From a bacterium (GTDB taxonomy: Bacteria; Patescibacteriota; Minisyncoccia; Phycocordibacterales; UBA9973), in assembly GCA_037143195.1 (NCBI GenBank), contig JBAWZD010000002.1, positions 140,620 through 204,619 on the forward strand: a stretch of 64,000 bases of DNA, read 5' to 3'. The position numbers and the translations under genes were made by a program. Under the pieces are notes generated by a model. The model was not told the origin of the DNA. It ran no database searches and saw only the letters and a list, made by a program, of their open reading frames with translations. Shown here piece by piece: positions 981 through 22,264 of the stretch (its first letter is position 1; every line of letters starts with the position of its first letter).

Positions 981-1424
981 ATGGAAAGCTATCTAGACAA
1001 TCCAAAAGCCAGATTTGATTACGAAGTGCTCGAGCGCTACGACGCGGGCATCGAGCTTTTGGGCTTCGAGGTCAAATCAGTCCGTGCGGGTCGTGGATCG
1101 ATCGCAGGCACGCACATCATCGTGCGTGGCGGGGAAGTCTTCATTGTCGGCATGCGTATTGATCCATATCAAGTCGGCAATACCACGACGGACTACGCTC
1201 CTGATCACACGCGCAAACTGCTTTTGACCAAAAAAGAAATTCACGAGCTCGAAGAAACAGAATCGAAGAAGGGTTTGACCTTGGTGCCTTTGTCGTTGTA
1301 TAATAAAGGTGGGAAGATCAAGGTGAGTTTCGCTGTCGCGCGCGGAAAGAAGCAATTCGACAAGCGCGAGACTATCAAGAAGCGCGACACAGACCGAGAT
1401 CTTCGTCGTTTGTTGAAACGTTAA
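981..1424 (+). CDS. smpB: SsrA-binding protein SmpB
   Basis: MESYLDNPKARFDYEVLERYDAGIELLGFEVKSVRAG...GLTLVPLSLYNKGGKIKVSFAVARGKKQFDKRE typical SmpB; start taken at internal Met of ORF 927..1424; divergent from 940 gene. Confidence 0.85.
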   Translation: MESYLDNPKARFDYEVLERYDAGIELLGFEVKSVRAGRGSIAGTHIIVRGGEVFIVGMRIDPYQVGNTTTDYAPDHTRKLLLTKKEIHELEETESKKGLTLVPLSLYNKGGKIKVSFAVARGKKQFDKRETIKKRDTDRDLRRLLKR

Positions 1425-1436
1425 CAACACAATATT

Positions 1437-1845
1437 GGGGATGAAATGAATAGACAATGAGTTTCATTCTGTGTGCGCATGTCGAGCAGGGGACTACTCT
1501 CGTAAATCGTGTCCTAAACATCCAAATGCAAAAACATCTGGTGCTAAAGTAGCTTCGCCTTACGCGAAGAGCTTTGGCTTCGCATTCGCTTAATAATATA
1601 AGCCAGTGCGATGTCTCACGCGCCGATTTCTAATACGCGATGTGAGGCATAATATTTTTAGAATAGAGGACGGTCCCGCTTTGGGCCATACTCGAAATCT
1701 GTAGAGCTCGGAACGAATGTATTTTGTCGTTTTACAAGCATTCGAACTTAAATCTGTCGCAAGACAGAATATAAAACTGACTACACATGTAGAAGCGCGT
1801 GGAATCACGCATTGCACGAGGGTTCGCTACCCTCCATCTCCACCC
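1437..1845 (+). ncRNA. ssrA: tmRNA (ssrA); tag reading frame 1528-1590 encodes AKTSGAKVASPYAKSFGFAFA followed by TAA TAA
   Basis: 5' GGGGATG pairs with 3' CATCTCC (1835-1841) giving tRNA-Ala-like acceptor with G3.U wobble, discriminator A then CC; T-arm GAGGG-ttcgcta-CCCTC 1818-1834; resume codon GCA; immediately downstream of smpB. Confidence 0.7.
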
Positions 1846-1849
1846 GTTG

Positions 1850-1884
1850 AAAAAAGAGCGCTCGCAAGAGCGCCTTTTTTCTTT
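1850..1884 (+). terminator. intrinsic terminator after tmRNA
   Basis: aaaaaaga GCGCTC gcaa GAGCGC cttttttcttt : 6-bp GC stem, GNRA loop, U-tract (A-tract upstream, possibly bidirectional). Confidence 0.6.
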
Positions 1885-1936
1885 GGTGGAGATGAGCGAG
1901 ACGCCTGCGCGTCTCGCGAGAGGGTAGCGAAAGCCG
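1884..1936. repeat. inverted partial copy of tmRNA 3' end (ggtggagatg ... agggtagcgaa)
   Basis: 1884-1893 ggtggagatg is reverse complement of catctccacc (tmRNA 1835-1844); 1920-1930 agggtagcgaa is reverse complement of ttcgctaccct (T-loop/stem). Confidence 0.5.
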
Positions 1937-2018
1937 GAGCGATGTTTCGCAAGCATGCGAAACCGCGAGGCGGGGTCGCGCACCTTCCGAGCGACGGCGA
2001 GGAAGGATGTGTGACCGC

Positions 2019-2032
2019 ACCCTCCATCTCCA
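2019..2032 (+). repeat. direct repeat of tmRNA 3'-terminal 14 nt ACCCTCCATCTCCA (att-like)
   Basis: identical 14-mer at 1829-1842 (T-stem 3' strand + acceptor 3' strand + discriminator) and 2019-2032. Confidence 0.6.
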
Positions 2033-2077
2033 AATACAAGAAATACCTTATAAATTAAGGTTTTTCTTGTATTTTAC

Positions 2078-2106
2078 TTGACTTTTATATATAAACATGG
2101 TAATAT
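2078..2106 (+). promoter_or_regulatory. cassette promoter 1: TTGACTTTTA -35, 17-bp spacer, TAATAT -10
   Basis: cttgacttttatatataaacatggtaatat; same architecture repeated at 2657, 3297, 4176. Confidence 0.5.
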
Positions 2107-2213
2107 ATTTTTTAAGTGTTGCTTGGCCTGCTTGAGGGTATTTATTGAATCATCCCTGCTTCTTGAGAGTGGTAGAGATGATTCAATAATCTCAAACAGA
2201 AAAACGAAACAAG

Positions 2214-2411
2214 ATGAAAAATGTAATGATTCTTTTAGTGATGTTAACACCGATGATTGGCATCATGGTGTACTCGGATCTCACTGGCACAAAGTGGCCA
2301 GAACTTCCTGTTTTTATCAAGGGCGTAACTTGGATATTTGCCCTTGGATCATGTATCCAGGAACTGAGACTGCTCTATATCCTTTTAATAAAAGGGGAGA
2401 GACCAGAATAA
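2214..2411 (+). CDS. hypothetical small hydrophobic protein (65 aa), cassette 1
   Basis: ORF MKNVMILLVMLTPMIGIMVYSDLTGTKW...; downstream of cassette promoter, followed by hairpin + T-tract 2425-2460; weak RBS. Confidence 0.4.
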   Translation: MKNVMILLVMLTPMIGIMVYSDLTGTKWPELPVFIKGVTWIFALGSCIQELRLLYILLIKGERPE

Positions 2412-2460
2412 GTAAAGTATATTAATTTATAAAACCTGTCTTCGGATGGGTTTTATTTTT

Positions 2461-2650
2461 TCTATATTAGTTCATTGCTCTCGTCCCATACAGCAGGGAA
2501 CTAGCCAGTATCCGCAAGTAATTTTCGCATCGCAGGGCTACTTTGGTAATACACCCAAAACCGAGAAAGGTAATCTTGCAGGCGGTTCAACGTATTTCTC
2601 TGTGTGTCCACAATCTTAAGAAAAGCCTTACATTGTAAGGCTTTTCTTGT
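2461..2650 (+). repeat. conserved intercassette non-coding element, copy A (candidate sRNA; ends in 10-bp hairpin AAAAGCCTTA-cattg-TAAGGCTTTT)
   Basis: aligns with 3160-3296: gctctc..agggaacta.ccagta.cc..aag.aattt...ttggtaata..cccaaaac.gagaaaggta.tcttg. Confidence 0.5.
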
Positions 2651-2656
2651 TTTACC

Positions 2657-2690
2657 TTGACTTTTAGTAATATATAGTGTGTATTATAAT
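2657..2690 (+). promoter_or_regulatory. cassette promoter 2 (TTGACTTTTA -35, tattataat -10 region)
   Basis: ccttgacttttagtaatatatagtgtgtattataat. Confidence 0.45.
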
Positions 2691-2717
2691 CTAAGCTAAA
2701 CCATCTAAAATTCTTTT

Positions 2718-3113
2718 ATGAAATCAAACATTTTTTGGTACCAATACCCTCTTGCAGAGGATGAAAAAAATACGCTGAGAAAATCTGAAGTTGGGAGAGA
2801 GGTTCTCCGTCTTTACGAACTTTGCGTGCAGGGGCGAAAGACAGTCAAGCGTGTGAGATATGTTTGTTCTATTATAGTGGCCGTCATTATTTTTTTAGGT
2901 GCAAAGACAGAAACATCTTTGCTTCCGGCGGTTAGTATAAGCGTTGTTGTTTCACTTGTATTTTTTGCGTGGTCATGGTTTATCCTTACCGAGGAGAGAA
3001 ACCGAGATATCAAAGAAACAGAAGACGTCATCGCTAAATTGTGCGAAGAGCAAGGAGGTACTCAAATTGGAGGTATCCTTCAACGCATGATAGACAACGG
3101 TAGGGTGTTGTAG
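2718..3113 (+). CDS. hypothetical small membrane protein (131 aa, two predicted TM helices), cassette 2
   Basis: ORF with hydrophobic segments SIIVAVIIFLGAK and VSISVVVSLVFFAWSWFIL; preceded by cassette promoter. Confidence 0.45.
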   Translation: MKSNIFWYQYPLAEDEKNTLRKSEVGREVLRLYELCVQGRKTVKRVRYVCSIIVAVIIFLGAKTETSLLPAVSISVVVSLVFFAWSWFILTEERNRDIKETEDVIAKLCEEQGGTQIGGILQRMIDNGRVL

Positions 3114-3159
3114 GTTTAAATTATTGAAGCAGAAGTCGTTCCAAATTTATGGGGCGGCT

Positions 3160-3296
3160 TTTTCTGTTATACCAATTCCGTGCTCTCCCTGTGTCTGTAC
3201 AAAAGGGAACTACCCAGTACCCATAAGCAATTTGGGGATCATCGTGCTGGATTGGTAATAAGTCCAAAACTGAGAAAGGTATTTCTTGTATTCATA
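3160..3296 (+). repeat. conserved intercassette non-coding element, copy B
   Basis: see copy A; starts right after terminator of cassette 2 (gggcggctttttctg) and runs into cassette promoter 3. Confidence 0.5.
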
Positions 3297-3325
3297 TTGA
3301 CTTTTAAATATAAATATGTTATTAT
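3297..3325 (+). promoter_or_regulatory. cassette promoter 3: TTGACTTTTA, 17-bp spacer, TATTAT
   Basis: attgacttttaaatataaatatgttattat. Confidence 0.5.
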
Positions 3326-3417
3326 ATAAGCTGGTTTTTCTTTGAAATAGCCTTTTGTTCAAGCGCTGTGGTCGCAAAATTTGTTGCTAGAGCGCCTGAA
3401 CAAATTAGAGGCAAAAA

Positions 3418-3951
3418 ATGATAGAAGCAGCATCTCTCAGAAAGCAAAGTCTTGCATTATTTAAGCAAGCAATTTATGTTCGTGCTCGCATGAACGACGA
3501 ACAAGACCATCAGGATAATGGGACGAATACCCATGTATCTCAGTTTAAGAATCTCGGCAAAGATGTGCTCGATCAGCTAATCGCGCACTTGGACTTGAAC
3601 CAGGGAGGTCAATTTGATCGAGTGAGTCAAGTCGACCTTGCATTTTGGGGTCCGCTTACCGGGTTTACAGTTGTTGCCGAAGATGTGGCAACGAATCGTT
3701 GGGGTCAGGCTACCGTGCTTGATGTTCTGAGCGAGTTTATTGCTCGTCCGGAAAATGAAAAGAGGTTTCTTACGCACAGTTACTTTGATCCAACCTTAGT
3801 AATTATCACGTGCTATAGTACCACTTATTATCCTGACGAAAGTACTTACTTTAACATCACGCATGATCCATATGTGATTTGCGCTGATGTGAGAAAGAAA
3901 TGTATTCGCATCATAAATGATGCGAGAGTCACTCGGCAAAACCCACAGTAA
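3418..3951 (+). CDS. hypothetical protein (177 aa, soluble), cassette 3
   Basis: ORF with AGAGG RBS 8 nt upstream (aattagaggcaaaaaATG); no recognisable domain. Confidence 0.5.
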   Translation: MIEAASLRKQSLALFKQAIYVRARMNDEQDHQDNGTNTHVSQFKNLGKDVLDQLIAHLDLNQGGQFDRVSQVDLAFWGPLTGFTVVAEDVATNRWGQATVLDVLSEFIARPENEKRFLTHSYFDPTLVIITCYSTTYYPDESTYFNITHDPYVICADVRKKCIRIINDARVTRQNPQ

Positions 3952-4175
3952 TGGTGTGTCTAGTCGTAGTGTGACCTAGTGATTTTGGGTACTGTATATG
4001 TGCCTTAGCTTCAAATGGGGCGAGTTCCTTTGTTTCTCGCAGAGATAGTTCGACGCATTGTTTGAAGTTTTTGAGAAGAATATTTTCAAAAAATGGTTTC
4101 AAGTACATTACCCTTAGGAAAATCCTAGGGGTATTTTTTTATAGTAGTTTTGCCCCCCCGTGTGGCAGGGGATAC

Positions 4176-4204
4176 TTGACGTTTAGATTAGCATGTGTTA
4201 TTTT
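4176..4204 (+). promoter_or_regulatory. cassette promoter 4: TTGACGTTTA, 17-bp spacer, TATTTT
   Basis: cttgacgtttagattagcatgtgttatttt; preceded by hairpin cccttaggaaaatcctagggg + T-tract 4110-4140. Confidence 0.45.
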
Positions 4205-4242
4205 ATTATTAATAAATTCATTTCTAAATTTGCGAAAGAATA

Positions 4243-4572
4243 ATGAAAAAATTCACGATTATCGGTATTCTTATTACGCTAGCTCTTGAGGGAGTGGCGT
4301 ACCTGTTCAAAACAGAACTCCAAGACATTTTTGGGGAACTTTACATTGTGGTGTACGTGTTCATTGGTCTGATCGGTTTAGTTATTTCGCTTGCTCCTTC
4401 GACGACGGGGAGTGGAAGGAATGACAACGACGATGACAATTCTGGTGGTGTGTCATTTATGACAGATGGTCATCTTGGCATCAATTTGGGAGGGATTTCC
4501 ATCGATGTCGTAGATCACACTATTGGTCAAAACTTTGGCAACGGGATATCGAATAACAGTTTCCCATCATGA
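4243..4572 (+). CDS. hypothetical small membrane protein (109 aa; two N-terminal TM helices, Gly/Asp/Asn-rich C-terminus), cassette 4
   Basis: MKKFTIIGILITLALEGVAYLF...LYIVVYVFIGLIGLVISLA then GSGRNDNDDDNSGG...; terminator-like hairpin 4596-4625. Confidence 0.45.
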   Translation: MKKFTIIGILITLALEGVAYLFKTELQDIFGELYIVVYVFIGLIGLVISLAPSTTGSGRNDNDDDNSGGVSFMTDGHLGINLGGISIDVVDHTIGQNFGNGISNNSFPS

Positions 4573-5278
4573 AAGTAAAATGAATGTTGTTAAAAGCCCT
4601 CTCCTTTATCGGGGGGCTTTTATTATTGAGTGTCTGTCGATTGAGGGCAGATGGGTACCTCTGAGTGAATTATTGATGCAAGCGGAGCGCAGTAGATGCT
4701 TGTTTTTTAAGAAGTTGGTTAATTCCCTTGTGAGCTATCGTATCGTGGCTGATGGGGGAGTTAACCAAATGTGTAATCTTTAAAAATTATTGTATGAATT
4801 TTAGAAAAATAGGTATCATGAGATTTTCCCTTTTGAGATTTGAAAATATTGGCATCTCGCTTTGCGAATTCGCTAGTATAAACGATCACTGGTCCCTCTT
4901 TTATTTGGGGTGGGACCCAATTTATGGGATTGGTTTTTCAATCTTGTGGTTGAAAAAACATGGTTTAGACTTTAACCCTGGGTTACGAATCCTTGATGGT
5001 TCGTACGAGCCTTTTGAGAAAAATATTCTTAACAGGTTTAAACTTCGGTTATTTTTGTAATCTTGAACTAGGTCAATCTCAAACAGCAAAGTATGAATGC
5101 CTCGATTTTTGGTCGGGGCATTTTTTGTATTTCATTCATTTTACGGAGATAGAATTCAAATAAAAACGAACAAATATAAGTATCCTGAAGCCCTGTTTTC
5201 ATGTATAATGCCCCTACTTCCGAGATGCGGAGTCCTGAGTGATTCGTGCGGAGAAGTCGAAAATAACCCATATACTAT

Positions 5279-7234
5279 ATGACTACAAACAACAAAGACC
5301 CGAAGATGGACGAGGAGAAGGGCAAGGCTCCGTCACCAAATCCTAAAATGCCAGTGCCACCGACGTCGAGTCTCGGACGAAATATTCTCGTCACGGTACT
5401 CATTTTTATGATTATTACGGCTGCGTACATCTTTTTTTCTGGCAAAGCGACACCAGCAAACAAGAGTATTTCACTTTCTGAGCTCGCCAAAGATGTGACG
5501 ACCGGCACTGTAAAGACTATTGAAGTCGATGGTGATGCGCTCACGATCAAACTCCAAGACGGCTCGACGGTGACTGCCAAGAAAGAAGTCGAAGCATCGC
5601 TCTCGGAGACACTCAAAAATTACGGCGTACCTGCGGACAAAGTGAGCGCTACTGATATTACAGTGAAATCATCGACCGATGCGATGTACTGGATTTTTAA
5701 CATCGTGCCAATCGTGCTTCCAATCATCGTCATCATTTTCTTTTTCTGGTATCTCTCTCGACAGGCCAAAGGTGCTGGCATGCAAGCGTTCACCTTCGGT
5801 CAATCCAAAGCGCGTATGACTGATCCATCAGATCAGAACAATCGCGTCACATTCAAAGATGTCGCTGGAGCAAAAGAAGCCAAAGAAGAATTGAAAGAGA
5901 TTGTGGACTTCTTGAAGAATCCAAAAAAGTTTCTCGACATTGGTGCACGTATTCCAAAAGGTGTTTTGCTCACTGGTGCTCCCGGAACAGGAAAGACATT
6001 GCTTGCTCGTGCAGTAGCGGGGGAGGCGAATGTGCCATTCTTCCATCTCTCCGGTTCTGAATTCGTCGAGATGTTTGTGGGTGTTGGTGCTTCGCGCGTA
6101 CGCGACCTCTTTCAGAAGGCGAAGCGCGCCGCGCCCGCAATAGTGTTCATCGACGAGATTGACGCGGTCGGGCGCGTGCGCGGCACTGGCGTCGGTGGAG
6201 GAAATGACGAACGCGAACAAACACTGAACCAGATCCTCGTTGAGATGGACGGCTTCGAACCGAACGACAAAGTCATCGTCATGGCAGCAACAAACCGCAA
6301 CGACGTGCTTGATCCAGCCTTGCTCCGTCCAGGACGTTTCGACAGACGTGTTGTACTCGATCTTCCTGATCGTCGCGACCGTGAAGAAATTCTCAAAGTA
6401 CACGCACTCAAAAAGCCACTCGCCGAAGATGTAAATCTCGTCATTATTGCCGAGCGTACGAGCGGATTCTCCGGTGCAGATCTCTACTCACTCATGAACG
6501 AAGGTGCAATTCTTGCTGCACGTGAAAATCGAAAAAAAGTTTCGCAATTTGATCTCGTGCGATCAATCGAAAAAGTGATGCTTGGTCCTGAACGCAAGAG
6601 TCATCTTTTCTCGACAGAAGAAAAGAAAGTGACTGCATATCACGAAGGTGGCCATGCACTCGTCGCTTCAGTGTTGCCACATGCTGACCCAGTCCACAAA
6701 GTCTCAATCGTTGCACGTGGACGCGCTGGCGGATATACGCTCAAGATTCCGCTTGAAGAACGCAAACTTCAAACCAAGAGTGAATTCCTCGACGATATTG
6801 CAATGGCGCTTGGAGGAATGGCTGCGGAGAAAATGGTCTTTGGTGATATCACCACTGGTCCATCGAATGACTTGCAGGTAGCAACAGGACTTGCTCGTGC
6901 CATGGTCACACGATGGGGAATGTCAGATGTCATTGGACCTGTAGCCCTCGAAAGTGATGGCGGACGTACGATATCAGGTGGCGCACAAGCAGACGGAGAT
7001 ATGTCTGAAGCCACTCACGCAATCGTAAACTCAGAGGTCAAAAAAATCATGGACGAAGGTCTCGTTCGCGCAACACAGGTACTCACGGACCACCGCACAA
7101 CGCTCGACGCGATCGCCGACAAACTCGTCGAAGTCGAAACACTCGAACAACCTGAGTACGAAGCGATCATCAAAGCGCATGGCATCAAGCTCAAGAAGAA
7201 AGTTGATGTTGTCGCCGAACTTGCGAAAGCGTAG
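5279..7234 (+). CDS. ftsH: ATP-dependent zinc metalloprotease FtsH
   Basis: N-terminal TM, AAA Walker [18 protein letters not shown], second-region-of-homology, HEGGHAL zinc motif; extended -10 TGTATAAT at ~5206. Confidence 0.95.
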
Positions 7235-22035: not shown

Positions 22036-22103
22036 CTTAGTATAGGAATTATATAAGTGCTTGATTACAAAATAGTTTTTATAAAGTACGGCTTCACTAT
22101 CTG

Positions 22104-22189
22104 CGGAGGCGGTGAGATTCGAACTCACGGAACCAATTAAGGTTCGACGGTTTAGTAAACCGTTGATTTAAACCACTCATCCACGCCTC
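22104..22189 (-). tRNA. type II tRNA (Ser-like: long variable arm, discriminator G) with unusual anticodon loop uuACUaa
   Basis: RC reads GGAGGCG-tg-GAT..ATC-a-ACGGT-ttactaa-ACCGT-c-GAACC-ttaatt-GGTTC-c-GTGAG-ttcgaat-CTCAC-CGCCTCC-g. Confidence 0.6.
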
Positions 22190-22264
22190 CTGTTTCGCAC
22201 TGATGCAGTATAGCTTTTATCGTGAAATAGGCAAGGCGAATTGTTTTTGTATATAATAGTACAC

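What the first reader, a model, noticed from the sequence alone, without database searches (positions are those of the whole stretch)
1829..5270. tmRNA-adjacent array of four small-gene cassettes with cloned promoters, bounded by a duplicated tmRNA 3' terminus
Seen: the 14-mer ACCCTCCATCTCCA, which forms the tmRNA T-stem/acceptor 3' strand (1829-1842), recurs as a direct repeat at 2019-2032. From there to ftsH lie four ORFs of 65, 131, 177 and 109 aa, three with predicted TM helices. Each is preceded by the same promoter architecture, cTTGAC(T/G)TTTA, a 17-bp spacer sharing ttta.at...a.atgt, and a TAATAT/TATTAT/TATTTT -10 (2078, 2657, 3297, 4176). Each is followed by its own hairpin terminator. 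Established: the 3' end of ssrA is a classic target of integrase-mediated islands, which duplicate the tmRNA 3' end at the far junction. Inference: this is a non-canonical integrative or cassette hotspot (no integrase lies in the window). The payload is small membrane proteins, possibly toxins, immunity or exclusion factors, each with a portable promoter. That organisation is not one I recognise as a described system.
Basis: partly seen in the sequence, partly recalled or inferred. Interest (0 to 1): 0.8.

Follow-up and report, generated by a model that had tools for sequence, protein, structure and literature searches.

The report
tmRNA-linked structured repeat and gene islet
Just after the tmRNA gene of this Patescibacteria genome sits a conserved, uncatalogued structured RNA element that ends in a copy of the tmRNA's own 3' end (a counterpart of E. 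coli's unexplained 'tRNA-linked repeats'), followed by a strain-variable stretch of small orphan genes; the repeat is therefore not the scar that bounds an integrated island.

Summary
The sequence facts are mostly right: tmRNA at 1437-1845, the exact 14-mer at 1829 and 2019, five (not four) small orphan ORFs, each with a terminator, and a shared promoter motif found nowhere else in the 64 kb. The reading needs splitting in two.

(1) The two 14-mers do not bound the gene array. They bound a 176-nt G+C-rich segment (1846-2018). It is one copy of a widespread element with a terminator-like hairpin, an inverted copy of the local tRNA or tmRNA 3' end, an ~85-nt conserved core with strong covariation, and a direct copy of that 3' end. 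I found at least 120 copies in metagenomes, nearly all just 3' of tRNA genes and often in tandem. Rfam has no model for it. Its anatomy matches the E. coli tRNA-linked repeats (RtT), but I detected no sequence or covariance-model similarity to them.

(2) The interval 2033-5278 is a low-GC, hypervariable islet. Every relative carries different small genes between tmRNA and ftsH. The cassettes share a ~230-nt junction module. One sister lineage has an 8.8-kb serine-recombinase island at exactly this tmRNA end.

The hotspot idea is therefore supported. The claim that the array is bounded by an att duplication is not. Function and expression of the element remain untested.

The parts
981..1424 (+). 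smpB
   Evidence: Pfam SmpB, E 1.7e-49.
1437..1845 (+). ssrA (tmRNA). Its 3' end X = ACCCTCCATCTCCA lies at 1829-1842.
   Evidence: Rfam RF00023, 110.2 bits. 14-mer located.
1858..1880 (+). Terminator-like hairpin T1 (GCGCTCGCAAGAGCGC plus a T-run). It is the tip of a longer hairpin whose base pairs the tmRNA 3' end (1835-1862) with 1867-1894.
   Evidence: (I2).
1885..1931 (+). Inverted copy X' of the tmRNA 3' end. It comprises GGTGGAGATG (1885-1894) and GAGGGTAGCGAA (1920-1931), split by hairpin hp1 (1896-1917, CUGC loop).
   Evidence: Sequence; I2 and I4; fold. The same split layout occurs in L097, L010 and L106.
1932..2016 (+). Conserved core of the tRNA-linked-repeat-like element (two arms, 29 base pairs).
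   Evidence: Covariance model R1, 103 bits, E 8e-20. Covariation.
2019..2032 (+). Direct copy X of the tmRNA 3' end. It pairs with X' to close the element.
2032..2108 (+). Junction module copy 1. It holds a 19-bp hairpin (2032-2074, a possible second terminator T2) and a promoter-like site (TTGACT at 2078, TAATAT at 2101).
   Evidence: (I6, D2, D3).
2214..2411 (+). ORF65, with two predicted TM segments. Terminator at 2429-2456.
   Evidence: No family hit.
2468..2689 (+). D1 repeat (2468-2611, ending ..TGTGTCCAC) plus junction module copy 2 (hairpin 2618-2648, TTGACT at 2657).
   Evidence: nhmmer, 133 and 54 bits. Alignment A4.
2718..3113 (+). ORF131, with two TM segments. Terminator at 3131-3162.
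   Evidence: It belongs to a rare family: 6 representatives among 1.84 billion proteins. It is 26% identical to the 128-aa gene of L083.
3178..3328 (+). D1 repeat copy 2 (truncated) fused to junction module copy 3 (TTGACT at 3297).
3418..3951 (+). ORF177, soluble. Terminators at 4001-4022 and 4109-4133.
   Evidence: Only one homologue cluster is known (80% identity). dN/dS is 0.22 against L082.
4176..4616 (+). Promoter-like site (TTGACG at 4176), ORF109 (4243-4572, two TM segments plus a Gly/Asn/Asp-rich tail) and terminator 4598-4616.
   Evidence: The homologue in L082 (41% identity) sits at a different place in the array.
4752..5123 (+). ORF102 (or 80 aa if it starts at 4818) and terminator 5095-5123.
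   Evidence: 66% identical to the L082 ORF; dN/dS 0.23.
5279..7234 (+). ftsH, the conserved right flank.
   Evidence: Pfam AAA and Peptidase_M41.

Best explanation
Two separate things lie side by side.

(A) Positions 1846-2032 are a tRNA-linked-repeat (TLR)-type element.
- It is a structured RNA domain encoded in the 3' trailer of ssrA.
- Its 5' part (X') is the complement of the tmRNA 3' end and its last 14 nt (X) are a copy of that end.
- X' and X pair, closing an ~85-nt conserved two-arm core.
[quoted passage not shown] The X'/X helix re-creates the acceptor/T-arm helix. The enzymes that mature tRNA and tmRNA ends can then cut it out as a discrete small RNA.
- What that small RNA does is unknown.

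(B) Positions 2033-5278 are a flexible, AT-rich islet of moron-like cassettes, each with a promoter, a small orphan gene and a terminator.
- It was built by repeated insertion and replacement next to the tmRNA end.
- The cassettes are joined by a shared junction module: D1, a ..TCCAC pseudo-end, a hairpin and a promoter.
- In this lineage the active agents are probably tmRNA-targeting serine-recombinase islands like the one in L091.
- The window keeps only cargo and junction remnants.

Status of each step:
- Shown: the anatomy, conservation, covariation, tRNA linkage and variability among relatives.
- Inferred: transcription, processing and the recombination mechanism.
For: ELEMENT
- The strand folds at -89.6 kcal/mol, z = -7.2.
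- Positions 1932-2016 score 103 bits with model R1.
- A 20-mer from the core has at least 120 exact hits in metagenomes.
- 62 of 82 copies have a same-strand tRNA within 400 nt upstream, covering 16 isotypes. The modal gap is 72-76 nt.
- X' and X match the local tRNA in each copy.
- In 40 sequences, 97.9% of cells are paired against 80.9% when shuffled. There are 205 double-sided changes against 60. An invariant G.U pair fixes the strand.
- Tandem copies and tRNA-element-tRNA strings occur.
- The tmRNA-linked copies in L097, L010, L023 and L014 carry compensatory changes and track their own tmRNA T-stem.
- E. coli TLRs have the same layout. The published features are in PMC8144298. The X'/X closing stem is seen in rtT.

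ISLET
- Low G+C.
- Each relative has a different gene set.
- Junction modules are shared across genomes while the genes differ.
- The L091 island and its repeats.
- ORF177 and ORF102 are under purifying selection.
Against: - There are no expression data, and T1 may simply terminate transcription.
- The core sequences were retrieved with an exact 20-mer, so conservation in those columns is circular.
- No sequence or covariance-model similarity to E. coli RtT was found. The link is by anatomy only.
- How X' and X stay matched to each tRNA is unexplained.
- The element is missing from the closest relatives (L083, L085), so it is dispensable.
- For the islet, no recombinase lies in the window. D1 has neither a conserved fold nor coding signal. 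D1 is not detectably derived from tmRNA. The duplicated hairpin-promoter flank is not what simple site-specific integration predicts.
Confidence: 0.7

Rival explanations
1. The 14-mer pair is the attL/attR duplication left by integrase-mediated insertion at the tmRNA 3' end, and it delimits the cassette array.
For: tmRNA ends are classic integration targets. A relative carries a serine-recombinase island at this exact end, flanked by CATCTCCAC repeats. The 176-nt segment is absent, precisely from X to X, in L083 and L085.
Against: - Both copies lie 5' of the array and there is no third copy near ftsH.
- The enclosed segment is a member of a conserved, covarying family found after many tRNAs.
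- It is present at the tmRNA of distant relatives with matched changes. Absence in L083 and L085 is therefore better explained by deletion between the direct repeats.
Confidence: 0.08
2. The element is a selfish, non-autonomous mobile element (MITE-like or retro-element-like). It inserts at tRNA and tmRNA 3' ends and copies the target in both orientations. It has no cellular function.
For: It is multi-copy, with up to 5-6 copies in 5-12 kb. It shows presence/absence polymorphism flanked by direct repeats. Tandem copies occur. The flanking repeats vary in length from 5 to 25 nt.
Against: - The ends are not constant, because X' differs with each tRNA.
- No transposase or reverse transcriptase is linked to it.
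- The 20-mer has no hit in IMG/VR.
- The core sequence is held across divergent lineages, and the tmRNA-linked copy is orthologous across relatives whose SmpB is about 53-55% identical to the window's (L010, L023).
- The pattern of conserved sequence at helix bases with variable tips is what structured RNAs under selection typically show (my own knowledge).
Confidence: 0.2
3. The core is a cis-acting ribozyme or nuclease guide that generates the tRNA/tmRNA 3' end, analogous to the theta (HDV-like) ribozymes that abut phage tRNAs.
For: The element has an obligate position in tRNA trailers, and X' pairs with the tRNA 3' end. Theta ribozymes are a precedent for ribozymes that process tRNA trailers (PMC10879173). 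From my own knowledge, Patescibacteria have reduced RNase sets.
Against: - The element starts 30-50 nt after the tRNA end, not within 5 nt.
- No ribozyme family matches it. The best is Hammerhead_II at 19.5 bits, E 5.6, in one of ten loci.
- Only one of the eight tRNA or tmRNA genes in this window has it.
- Close relatives lack it, so it is not required for maturation.
Confidence: 0.12
4. The gene array is not mobile at all. It arose by local tandem duplication of an intergenic terminator-promoter unit, plus fast-evolving or de novo orphan genes exchanged only by ordinary homologous recombination.
For: No recombinase lies in the window. The modules are paralogous at 75-88% identity. D1 has no RNA fold and no att-like signal beyond ..TCCAC. 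D1 and the junction module were found only in this interval among the held loci. D1 is absent from IMG/VR.
Against: - Contigs encoding the same SmpB protein differ right at the tmRNA end.
- The ORF109 homologue sits at a different position behind a different module in L082.
- The L091 island shows real site-specific traffic at this end, with D1 at its right border.
- G+C is lower by about 0.1.
Confidence: 0.3

Closest known systems
E. coli tRNA-linked repeats (TLRs: rtT/RttR of the tyrT operon; RrA/B/F of rrn operons; Rfam RtT RF00391)
   Same: - Both lie immediately 3' of a stable-RNA gene on the same strand.
- Both sit behind a first terminator, with a second hairpin after them.
- In both, the last 14-25 nt (18-19 in E. 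coli) repeat the 3' end of the upstream gene.
- Both occur in 1-5 tandem copies.
- Both have an internal inverted copy that pairs with the terminal repeat to close the unit. This last point is my own observation on rtT.
- The function of most TLRs is unknown (PMC8144298).
   Different: - No sequence or covariance-model similarity was detected. RtT scores 133-137 bits on E. coli and nothing here. R1 scores at most 8.6 bits on E. coli.
- The phylum differs.
- This copy is linked to tmRNA, which is not among the host genes described for E. coli TLRs (tRNA and rRNA operons) in the paper I read (PMC8144298).
- The core is much more strongly conserved, with clear covariation.
- A short form uses only the last few tRNA nucleotides plus the trailer.
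Integrase-mediated genomic islands at tRNA/tmRNA 3' ends, including tandem island arrays such as tycheposons (tycheposons are cited from my own knowledge)
   Same: A variable, AT-rich segment lies next to the tmRNA end. A relative carries a large-serine-recombinase island flanked by repeats of the tmRNA end, with remnants of an older copy beside it.
   Different: In the window there is no integrase and no flanking att pair around the array. The units are about 0.6-0.9 kb single-gene cassettes that share a terminator-promoter junction.
Phage 'morons' and integron cassette arrays
   Same: Single genes are inserted as autonomous units. As in morons, each has its own promoter and terminator. Junctions are conserved while the cargo is unrelated.
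   Different: There is no phage context (no hit in phages or plasmids). There is no intI, attI or attC core, and integron cassettes lack promoters.
Theta (HDV-like) ribozymes next to phage tRNAs
   Same: A structured RNA placed in tRNA 3' trailers (PMC10879173).
   Different: The element is not adjacent to the cleavage-relevant tRNA end. It has no HDV-like fold or Rfam hit, and it is larger (85-190 nt).

Membership tests
E. coli tRNA-linked repeats (TLR / Rfam RtT) | Lies immediately 3' of a tRNA/rRNA-type gene, on the same strand. | tested here: met
   In the window it starts 40 nt after the tmRNA. 62 of 82 metagenome copies lie behind a same-strand tRNA. Strings of tRNA-element units occur.
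E. coli tRNA-linked repeats (TLR / Rfam RtT) | The 3' end of the unit is identical to the last ~18-19 bp of the upstream gene. | tested here: met
   The window has 14 nt exact, and the match extends a few bases further 5' across a 1-nt gap, read by eye. Long-form copies have exact repeats of 10-25 nt, mostly 15-25, of the local tRNA. Short-form copies have only 5-8 nt.
E. coli tRNA-linked repeats (TLR / Rfam RtT) | [quoted passage not shown] | tested here: inconclusive
   T1 at 1858-1880 is a clear terminator-like site. The hairpin at 2032-2074 did not pass the terminator scan. Transcription cannot be tested with these tools.
E. coli tRNA-linked repeats (TLR / Rfam RtT) | One to several tandem copies per locus. 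| tested here: met
   The window has a single copy. Tandem pairs occur in L127, L142, L143, L144 and L156.
E. coli tRNA-linked repeats (TLR / Rfam RtT) | Sequence and structure homology to the RtT model. | tested here: not met
   RtT finds 4 units in E. coli at 133-137 bits. It finds nothing in the window (E up to 1) or in 10 element loci (E up to 10). R1 gives at most 8.6 bits on E. coli.
Integrase-mediated tmRNA island | Direct repeats of the gene's 3' end flank the inserted DNA. | tested here: not met
   Both copies (1829, 2019) lie upstream of the array, and no other copy with up to 2 mismatches exists. The feature is met for the 176-nt element itself, and for the L091 island.
Integrase-mediated tmRNA island | An integrase gene lies next to an att site. 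| tested here: not met
   tblastn with the relatives' serine recombinases finds only the tmRNA-antisense overlap. The neighbours within 4-5 kb upstream of smpB and about 4-6 kb beyond ftsH in the relative L082 carry no recombinase domain. Tyrosine recombinases were not searched across the whole 64 kb.
Integrase-mediated tmRNA island | Presence/absence or content polymorphism among relatives with conserved flanks. | tested here: met
Integron cassette array | intI, attI and attC sites with RYYYAAC/GTTRRRY cores; promoterless cassettes. | tested here: not met
   No integrase was found. The inter-cassette hairpins (AAGAAAAGCCTTA/TAAGGCTTTTCTT) lack attC cores, judged by eye. Each cassette has its own promoter-like site.
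MITE / IS-derived repeat | Constant terminal inverted repeats and a fixed-length target duplication. | tested here: not met
   The ends (X', X) change with the neighbouring tRNA. The repeats are 5-25 nt long.
HDV-like theta ribozyme | Cleavage site within about 5 nt of the tRNA 3' end; HDV-like double pseudoknot. | tested here: not met
   The core starts roughly 30 nt or more after the tRNA end (the modal gap to the 20-mer is 72-76 nt, and the 20-mer lies about 30 nt into the core). No HDV-type Rfam hit was found. Self-cleavage is not testable here.

The most novel reading that the evidence does not exclude
The element is the Patescibacterial representative of a cross-phylum class of stable-RNA trailer RNAs, the 'tRNA-linked repeats'.
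- Its closing helix rebuilds the acceptor/T-arm helix, so the tRNA-end machinery excises it as a small RNA.
- Its terminal copy of the 3' end also serves as a spare or decoy attachment site. This lets integrating elements land behind the essential tmRNA or tRNA gene instead of in it.
- In the window the cassette array starts after the element's copy of the end. In L085, which lacks the element, it starts after the tmRNA's own end.
- If correct, this would give a testable function to a class of repeats unexplained since 1978.
Probability: 0.2. Interest if true: 0.85.

Novelty: new variant of a known kind. Interest (0 to 1): 0.64.

Why it matters
- The element adds a well-supported structured RNA family that is absent from Rfam 15. 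It has more than 100 copies, 29 pairs, strong covariation and a fixed genomic context. It lies in a phylum whose RNA biology is barely charted.
- It shares the odd anatomy of the E. coli tRNA-linked repeats: a terminal copy and an internal complement of the upstream gene's 3' end. Those repeats are still functionally unexplained.
- Finding that anatomy in a distant phylum argues that it is selected, not accidental. It also offers many natural variants for testing processing models.
- It warns annotators that a duplicated tRNA or tmRNA 3' end is not by itself evidence of an integrated island.
- The adjacent islet gives a compact example of strain-level gene turnover at a tmRNA end in reduced genomes, with a shared junction module that can be followed in metagenomes.

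Tried and rejected
- **D1 as a decayed tmRNA 3' part.** nhmmer found no hit and local alignment scored at shuffle level, except for the L091 copy. This is left as an inference resting only on the ..TCCAC end.
- **D1 as a small gene.** A 57-aa ORF is shared across genomes, but dN/dS is 0.84. Rejected.
- **D1 as a structured RNA.** The consensus fold is -4 kcal/mol with no covariation. Rejected.
- **D1 or the core on viral contigs.** The six D1 18-mer hits are chance matches inside coding DNA. The core has no hit.
- **Phage or plasmid origin of 1846-5278.** No blastn match.
- **Function of the small proteins.** Pfam, PHROGs, PADLOC and NCBIfam gave nothing above threshold.
  - ORF177 has one homologue cluster. 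ORF109 has none by word search. ORF131 has 6 representatives.
  - AlphaFold2 of ORF177 gave pLDDT 36, so no fold search was run.
- **Group I tRNA introns of Patescibacteria (PMC13011429).** These sit in the anticodon loop and are unrelated to this element.
- **A minus-strand tRNA-like gene with an encoded CCA at 1885.** The CCA is not conserved in L097, L010 or L023, and the G.U pairs favour the + strand.
- **L089 as a further islet variant.** It is the L083 sequence with N-gaps.
- **Literature searches for a described Patescibacteria tRNA-trailer motif.** Nothing was found.

Full report
**Setting.** The window is from a Patescibacteria (Paceibacteria-like) metagenome-assembled genome.
- ORF177 is NCBI 'MAG: hypothetical protein WCG55_02995' on a 272-kb contig.
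- A Logan assembly (L081) carries SmpB, the small ORFs and FtsH at 100% amino-acid identity, in the same order.
- smpB is at 981-1424 and ftsH at 5279-7234 (Pfam).
- tmRNA is at 1437-1845 (Rfam, 110 bits). ARAGORN did not report it.

**Check of the observation.**
- The 14-mer ACCCTCCATCTCCA is at 1829 and 2019 and nowhere else, even with 2 mismatches. 0.29 matches are expected.
- The four ORFs exist. ORF65, ORF131 and ORF109 each have two hydrophobic segments. Each ORF is followed by a terminator-like hairpin.
- TTGAC[TG]TTTA occurs exactly four times in 64 kb, all in 2078-4176 on the + strand. It is therefore not the general promoter form of this window.
- The interval 2033-5278 has G+C 0.39, against 0.47-0.50 in its flanks.
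- Corrections are listed under the observation check. The main one is geometric: both 14-mers lie upstream of the genes and enclose only 1843-2018.

**What lies between the 14-mers.**
- The segment is G+C-rich and contains an inverted copy of the tmRNA 3' end. This copy comprises GGTGGAGATG (1885-1894) and GAGGGTAGCGAA (1920-1931), and a 22-nt hairpin interrupts it.
- As RNA the + strand folds at -89.6 kcal/mol (z = -7.2). The inverted copy pairs with the downstream 14-mer and encloses three hairpins.
- In L097 (SmpB 86% identical) the same segment follows the tmRNA, with compensatory changes in all three hairpins. Its outer stem follows that genome's own T-stem sequence.
- The same holds in L010, L023 and L014.
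- In the closest relatives (SmpB 98% identical, tmRNA about 97% identical at the DNA level) the segment is missing exactly from one copy of the repeat to the other.
- Because distant relatives have it, loss by recombination between the direct repeats is more parsimonious than gain.

**A widespread family.**
It has none in IMG/VR.
- Of 82 copies, 62 have a same-strand tRNA within 400 nt upstream, covering 16 isotypes. The modal gap is 72-76 nt.
- The layout is always the same: tRNA end, then an A-rich/GC-hairpin/T-rich segment, then a complement of the local tRNA end, then the core, then a direct copy of the local end.
- There are two forms.
  - A long form copies mostly 15-25 nt, starting in the T-loop.
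  - A short form copies the last few tRNA nucleotides plus the trailer.
- An alignment of 40 cores gives 29 pairs, of which 15 show double-sided changes. 97.9% of cells are paired, against 80.9% in shuffles and 33-43% when partners are slid. There are 205 double-sided changes against 60.
- An invariant G.U pair (39 of 39) and a second frequent one place the structure on the tRNA-sense strand.
- Caveat: columns under the 20-mer are invariant by construction.
- A covariance model (R1) finds one copy in the window (103 bits). It also finds copies after tmRNA or tRNA-Ile in five GTDB genomes labelled Paceibacterota, Taylorbacteria or Patescibacteria.
- R1 finds 115 copies in 451 kb of the metagenome loci. 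These include tandem pairs and tRNA-element-tRNA-element strings. Such strings imply co-transcription with the tRNAs.
- Rfam 15 has no match at permissive thresholds.

**Closest known.**
- E. coli tRNA-linked repeats lie in tRNA or rRNA operons, one to five per locus. Their last 18-19 bp are identical to the 3' end of the gene immediately upstream.
- The three rrn copies lie between dual terminators and are made by read-through. The repeat is proposed to be a processing signal. Most TLRs have no known function (PMC8144298).
- I read the tyrV-rttR region. Each 178-nt unit also carries GGGGAAGGAT, the complement of the terminal ATCCTTCCCC, and folds with that closing stem.
- The anatomy is therefore the same, but membership is not shown.
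  - Rfam RtT scores 133-137 bits on E. coli and nothing here.
  - R1 scores at most 8.6 bits on E. coli.
- I therefore file the element as a TLR-type element of a new sequence family, linked here to tmRNA.

**The gene islet.**
- In all close relatives the flanks are syntenic: NDK, DUF2238, beta-CASP, L20, IF3, PGM and smpB on one side, and ftsH, tRNA-Ile and CNNM on the other.
- The tmRNA-ftsH interval differs in each:
  - L083: genes of 137, 128 and 131 aa.
  - L082: 120, 178, 203, 43 and 84 aa.
  - L097: 212 aa.
  - L220: six genes.
  - L226: four genes.
  - L091-L096: an island of 8.8 kb or more.
- L083 and L085 encode the identical SmpB protein yet diverge at the first base after the tmRNA.
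- In distant relatives the gap ranges from 135 bp to 6.3 kb.
- Between the window and L082 (ftsH about 85% identical at the DNA level):
  - ORF177 is kept (80% amino-acid identity, dN/dS 0.22).
  - ORF102 is kept (dN/dS 0.23).
  - The ORF109 homologue (41% identity) sits before ORF178 instead of after it.
  - A 203-aa gene replaces the ORF109 cassette.
- ORF131 has a 26%-identical counterpart in L083 and only six representatives among 1.84 billion proteins.
- None of the proteins matches Pfam, PHROGs, PADLOC or NCBIfam.

**Junction module.**
- A ~140-nt repeat (D1) is followed by ..T(G/C)TCCAC, a 15-19-bp hairpin and the TTGACTTTT(T)A promoter.
- It recurs twice in the window, twice in L082 and once in L226. 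Parts of it occur in L083, L085, L091 and L235. The flanked genes are unrelated.
- Where D1 is absent, the true tmRNA end (L085, L226) or the element's copy of it (window, 2019-2032) occupies the same position before the hairpin.
- D1 is non-coding (dN/dS 0.84), has no conserved fold and is not detectably tmRNA-derived.

**The L091 island.**
- A 534-aa large serine recombinase reads toward the tmRNA. Its last 11 codons are the antisense of the tmRNA 3' end.
- CATCTCCAC recurs 8.8 kb downstream, just after a D1 copy.
- The ~100 nt after each repeat are homologous (score 40, against 16 +/- 2.3 for shuffles). The right copy therefore looks like the left end of an older element.
- This is direct evidence of site-specific traffic and accretion at this end in the lineage.
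- The window itself has no recombinase homologue.

**Mechanism, and how sure.**
- Element: I consider it a functional structured RNA of the ssrA trailer (about 0.8). I consider it TLR-type by anatomy (about 0.75).
- I infer, but have not shown, that it is excised through its tRNA-like closing helix (about 0.4). Mobile-element and ribozyme readings remain open.
- Islet: a flexible accessory region at a tmRNA hotspot (about 0.85).
- Whether its cassettes move by a site-specific recombinase acting on the junction, or only by homologous exchange, is undecided (roughly 0.35 against 0.3).

**Verdict.** The duplicated terminus is the hallmark of a TLR-type RNA element, not the boundary of the array.

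Noticed in passing
window 1437-1845: ARAGORN does not call this tmRNA (or report any tmRNA in the window), while Rfam scores it at 110 bits. Annotation pipelines that rely on ARAGORN would leave ssrA unannotated here.
   Followed up: partly
window 22103-22190 (- strand): ARAGORN reports a tRNA-Ser with anticodon ACT. From my own knowledge an A34 anticodon is unusual for bacterial tRNA-Ser, so this may be a mis-set anticodon position or a real oddity.
   Followed up: no
L083 14767-18728; L097 13988-18729; L082 5311-6073 (the region after ftsH and tRNA-Ile): The interval between ftsH/tRNA-Ile and the CNNM gene is a second variable spot. Relatives carry AbiEii, SocA_Panacea, a 395-432-aa serine recombinase, SEC-C proteins or an HTH_23 gene there. 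In the window tRNA-Ile is followed directly by CNNM.
   Followed up: partly
L091 10811-12415 (- strand) and 10841 / 19671: The large serine recombinase gene of the tmRNA-linked island ends inside the tmRNA gene, with its last 11 codons antisense to the tmRNA 3' end. About 100 nt after each CATCTCCAC repeat are homologous, which suggests tandem accretion of related islands.
   Followed up: partly
L014 3640-4720 (- strand): In a Taylorbacteria genome two copies of the element lie about 800 nt apart behind the tmRNA, with a 166-aa gene on the opposite strand between them. The second copy is preceded by ..AAGTCCAC and followed by a TTGACTTTTA promoter and a 283-aa gene. This is the same kind of cassette capture between repeat copies.
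   Followed up: partly
L228 (E. coli K-12, 1286.7-1287.5 kb), units at locus positions 911-1042, 1089-1220, 1267-1398 and 1564-1695: Each E. coli RtT unit contains GGGGAAGGAT, the complement of the terminal tRNA-Tyr repeat ATCCTTCCCC, and folds with that closing stem. I did not find this stated in the paper I read.
   Followed up: partly
window 2142-2189 and 3354-3404: Long imperfect hairpins lie in the ~100-nt leaders of ORF65 and ORF177. The ORF177 hairpin is conserved in L082. They may be translational control elements for small membrane or orphan proteins.
   Followed up: no
L127 4539-5326; L130 2356-4533; L142 7229-7657; L156 5295-6072: In some metagenome contigs almost every tRNA is followed by one or two copies of the element (5-6 copies in 5-12 kb). 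In this window only the tmRNA has one. Copy number therefore varies greatly between genomes.
   Followed up: partly
L002 6832-9459: In a more distant relative the tmRNA-ftsH gap is filled by an 875-aa gene whose translation looks like a P-type cation ATPase (by eye; no domain search was run) instead of small orphan genes.
   Followed up: no
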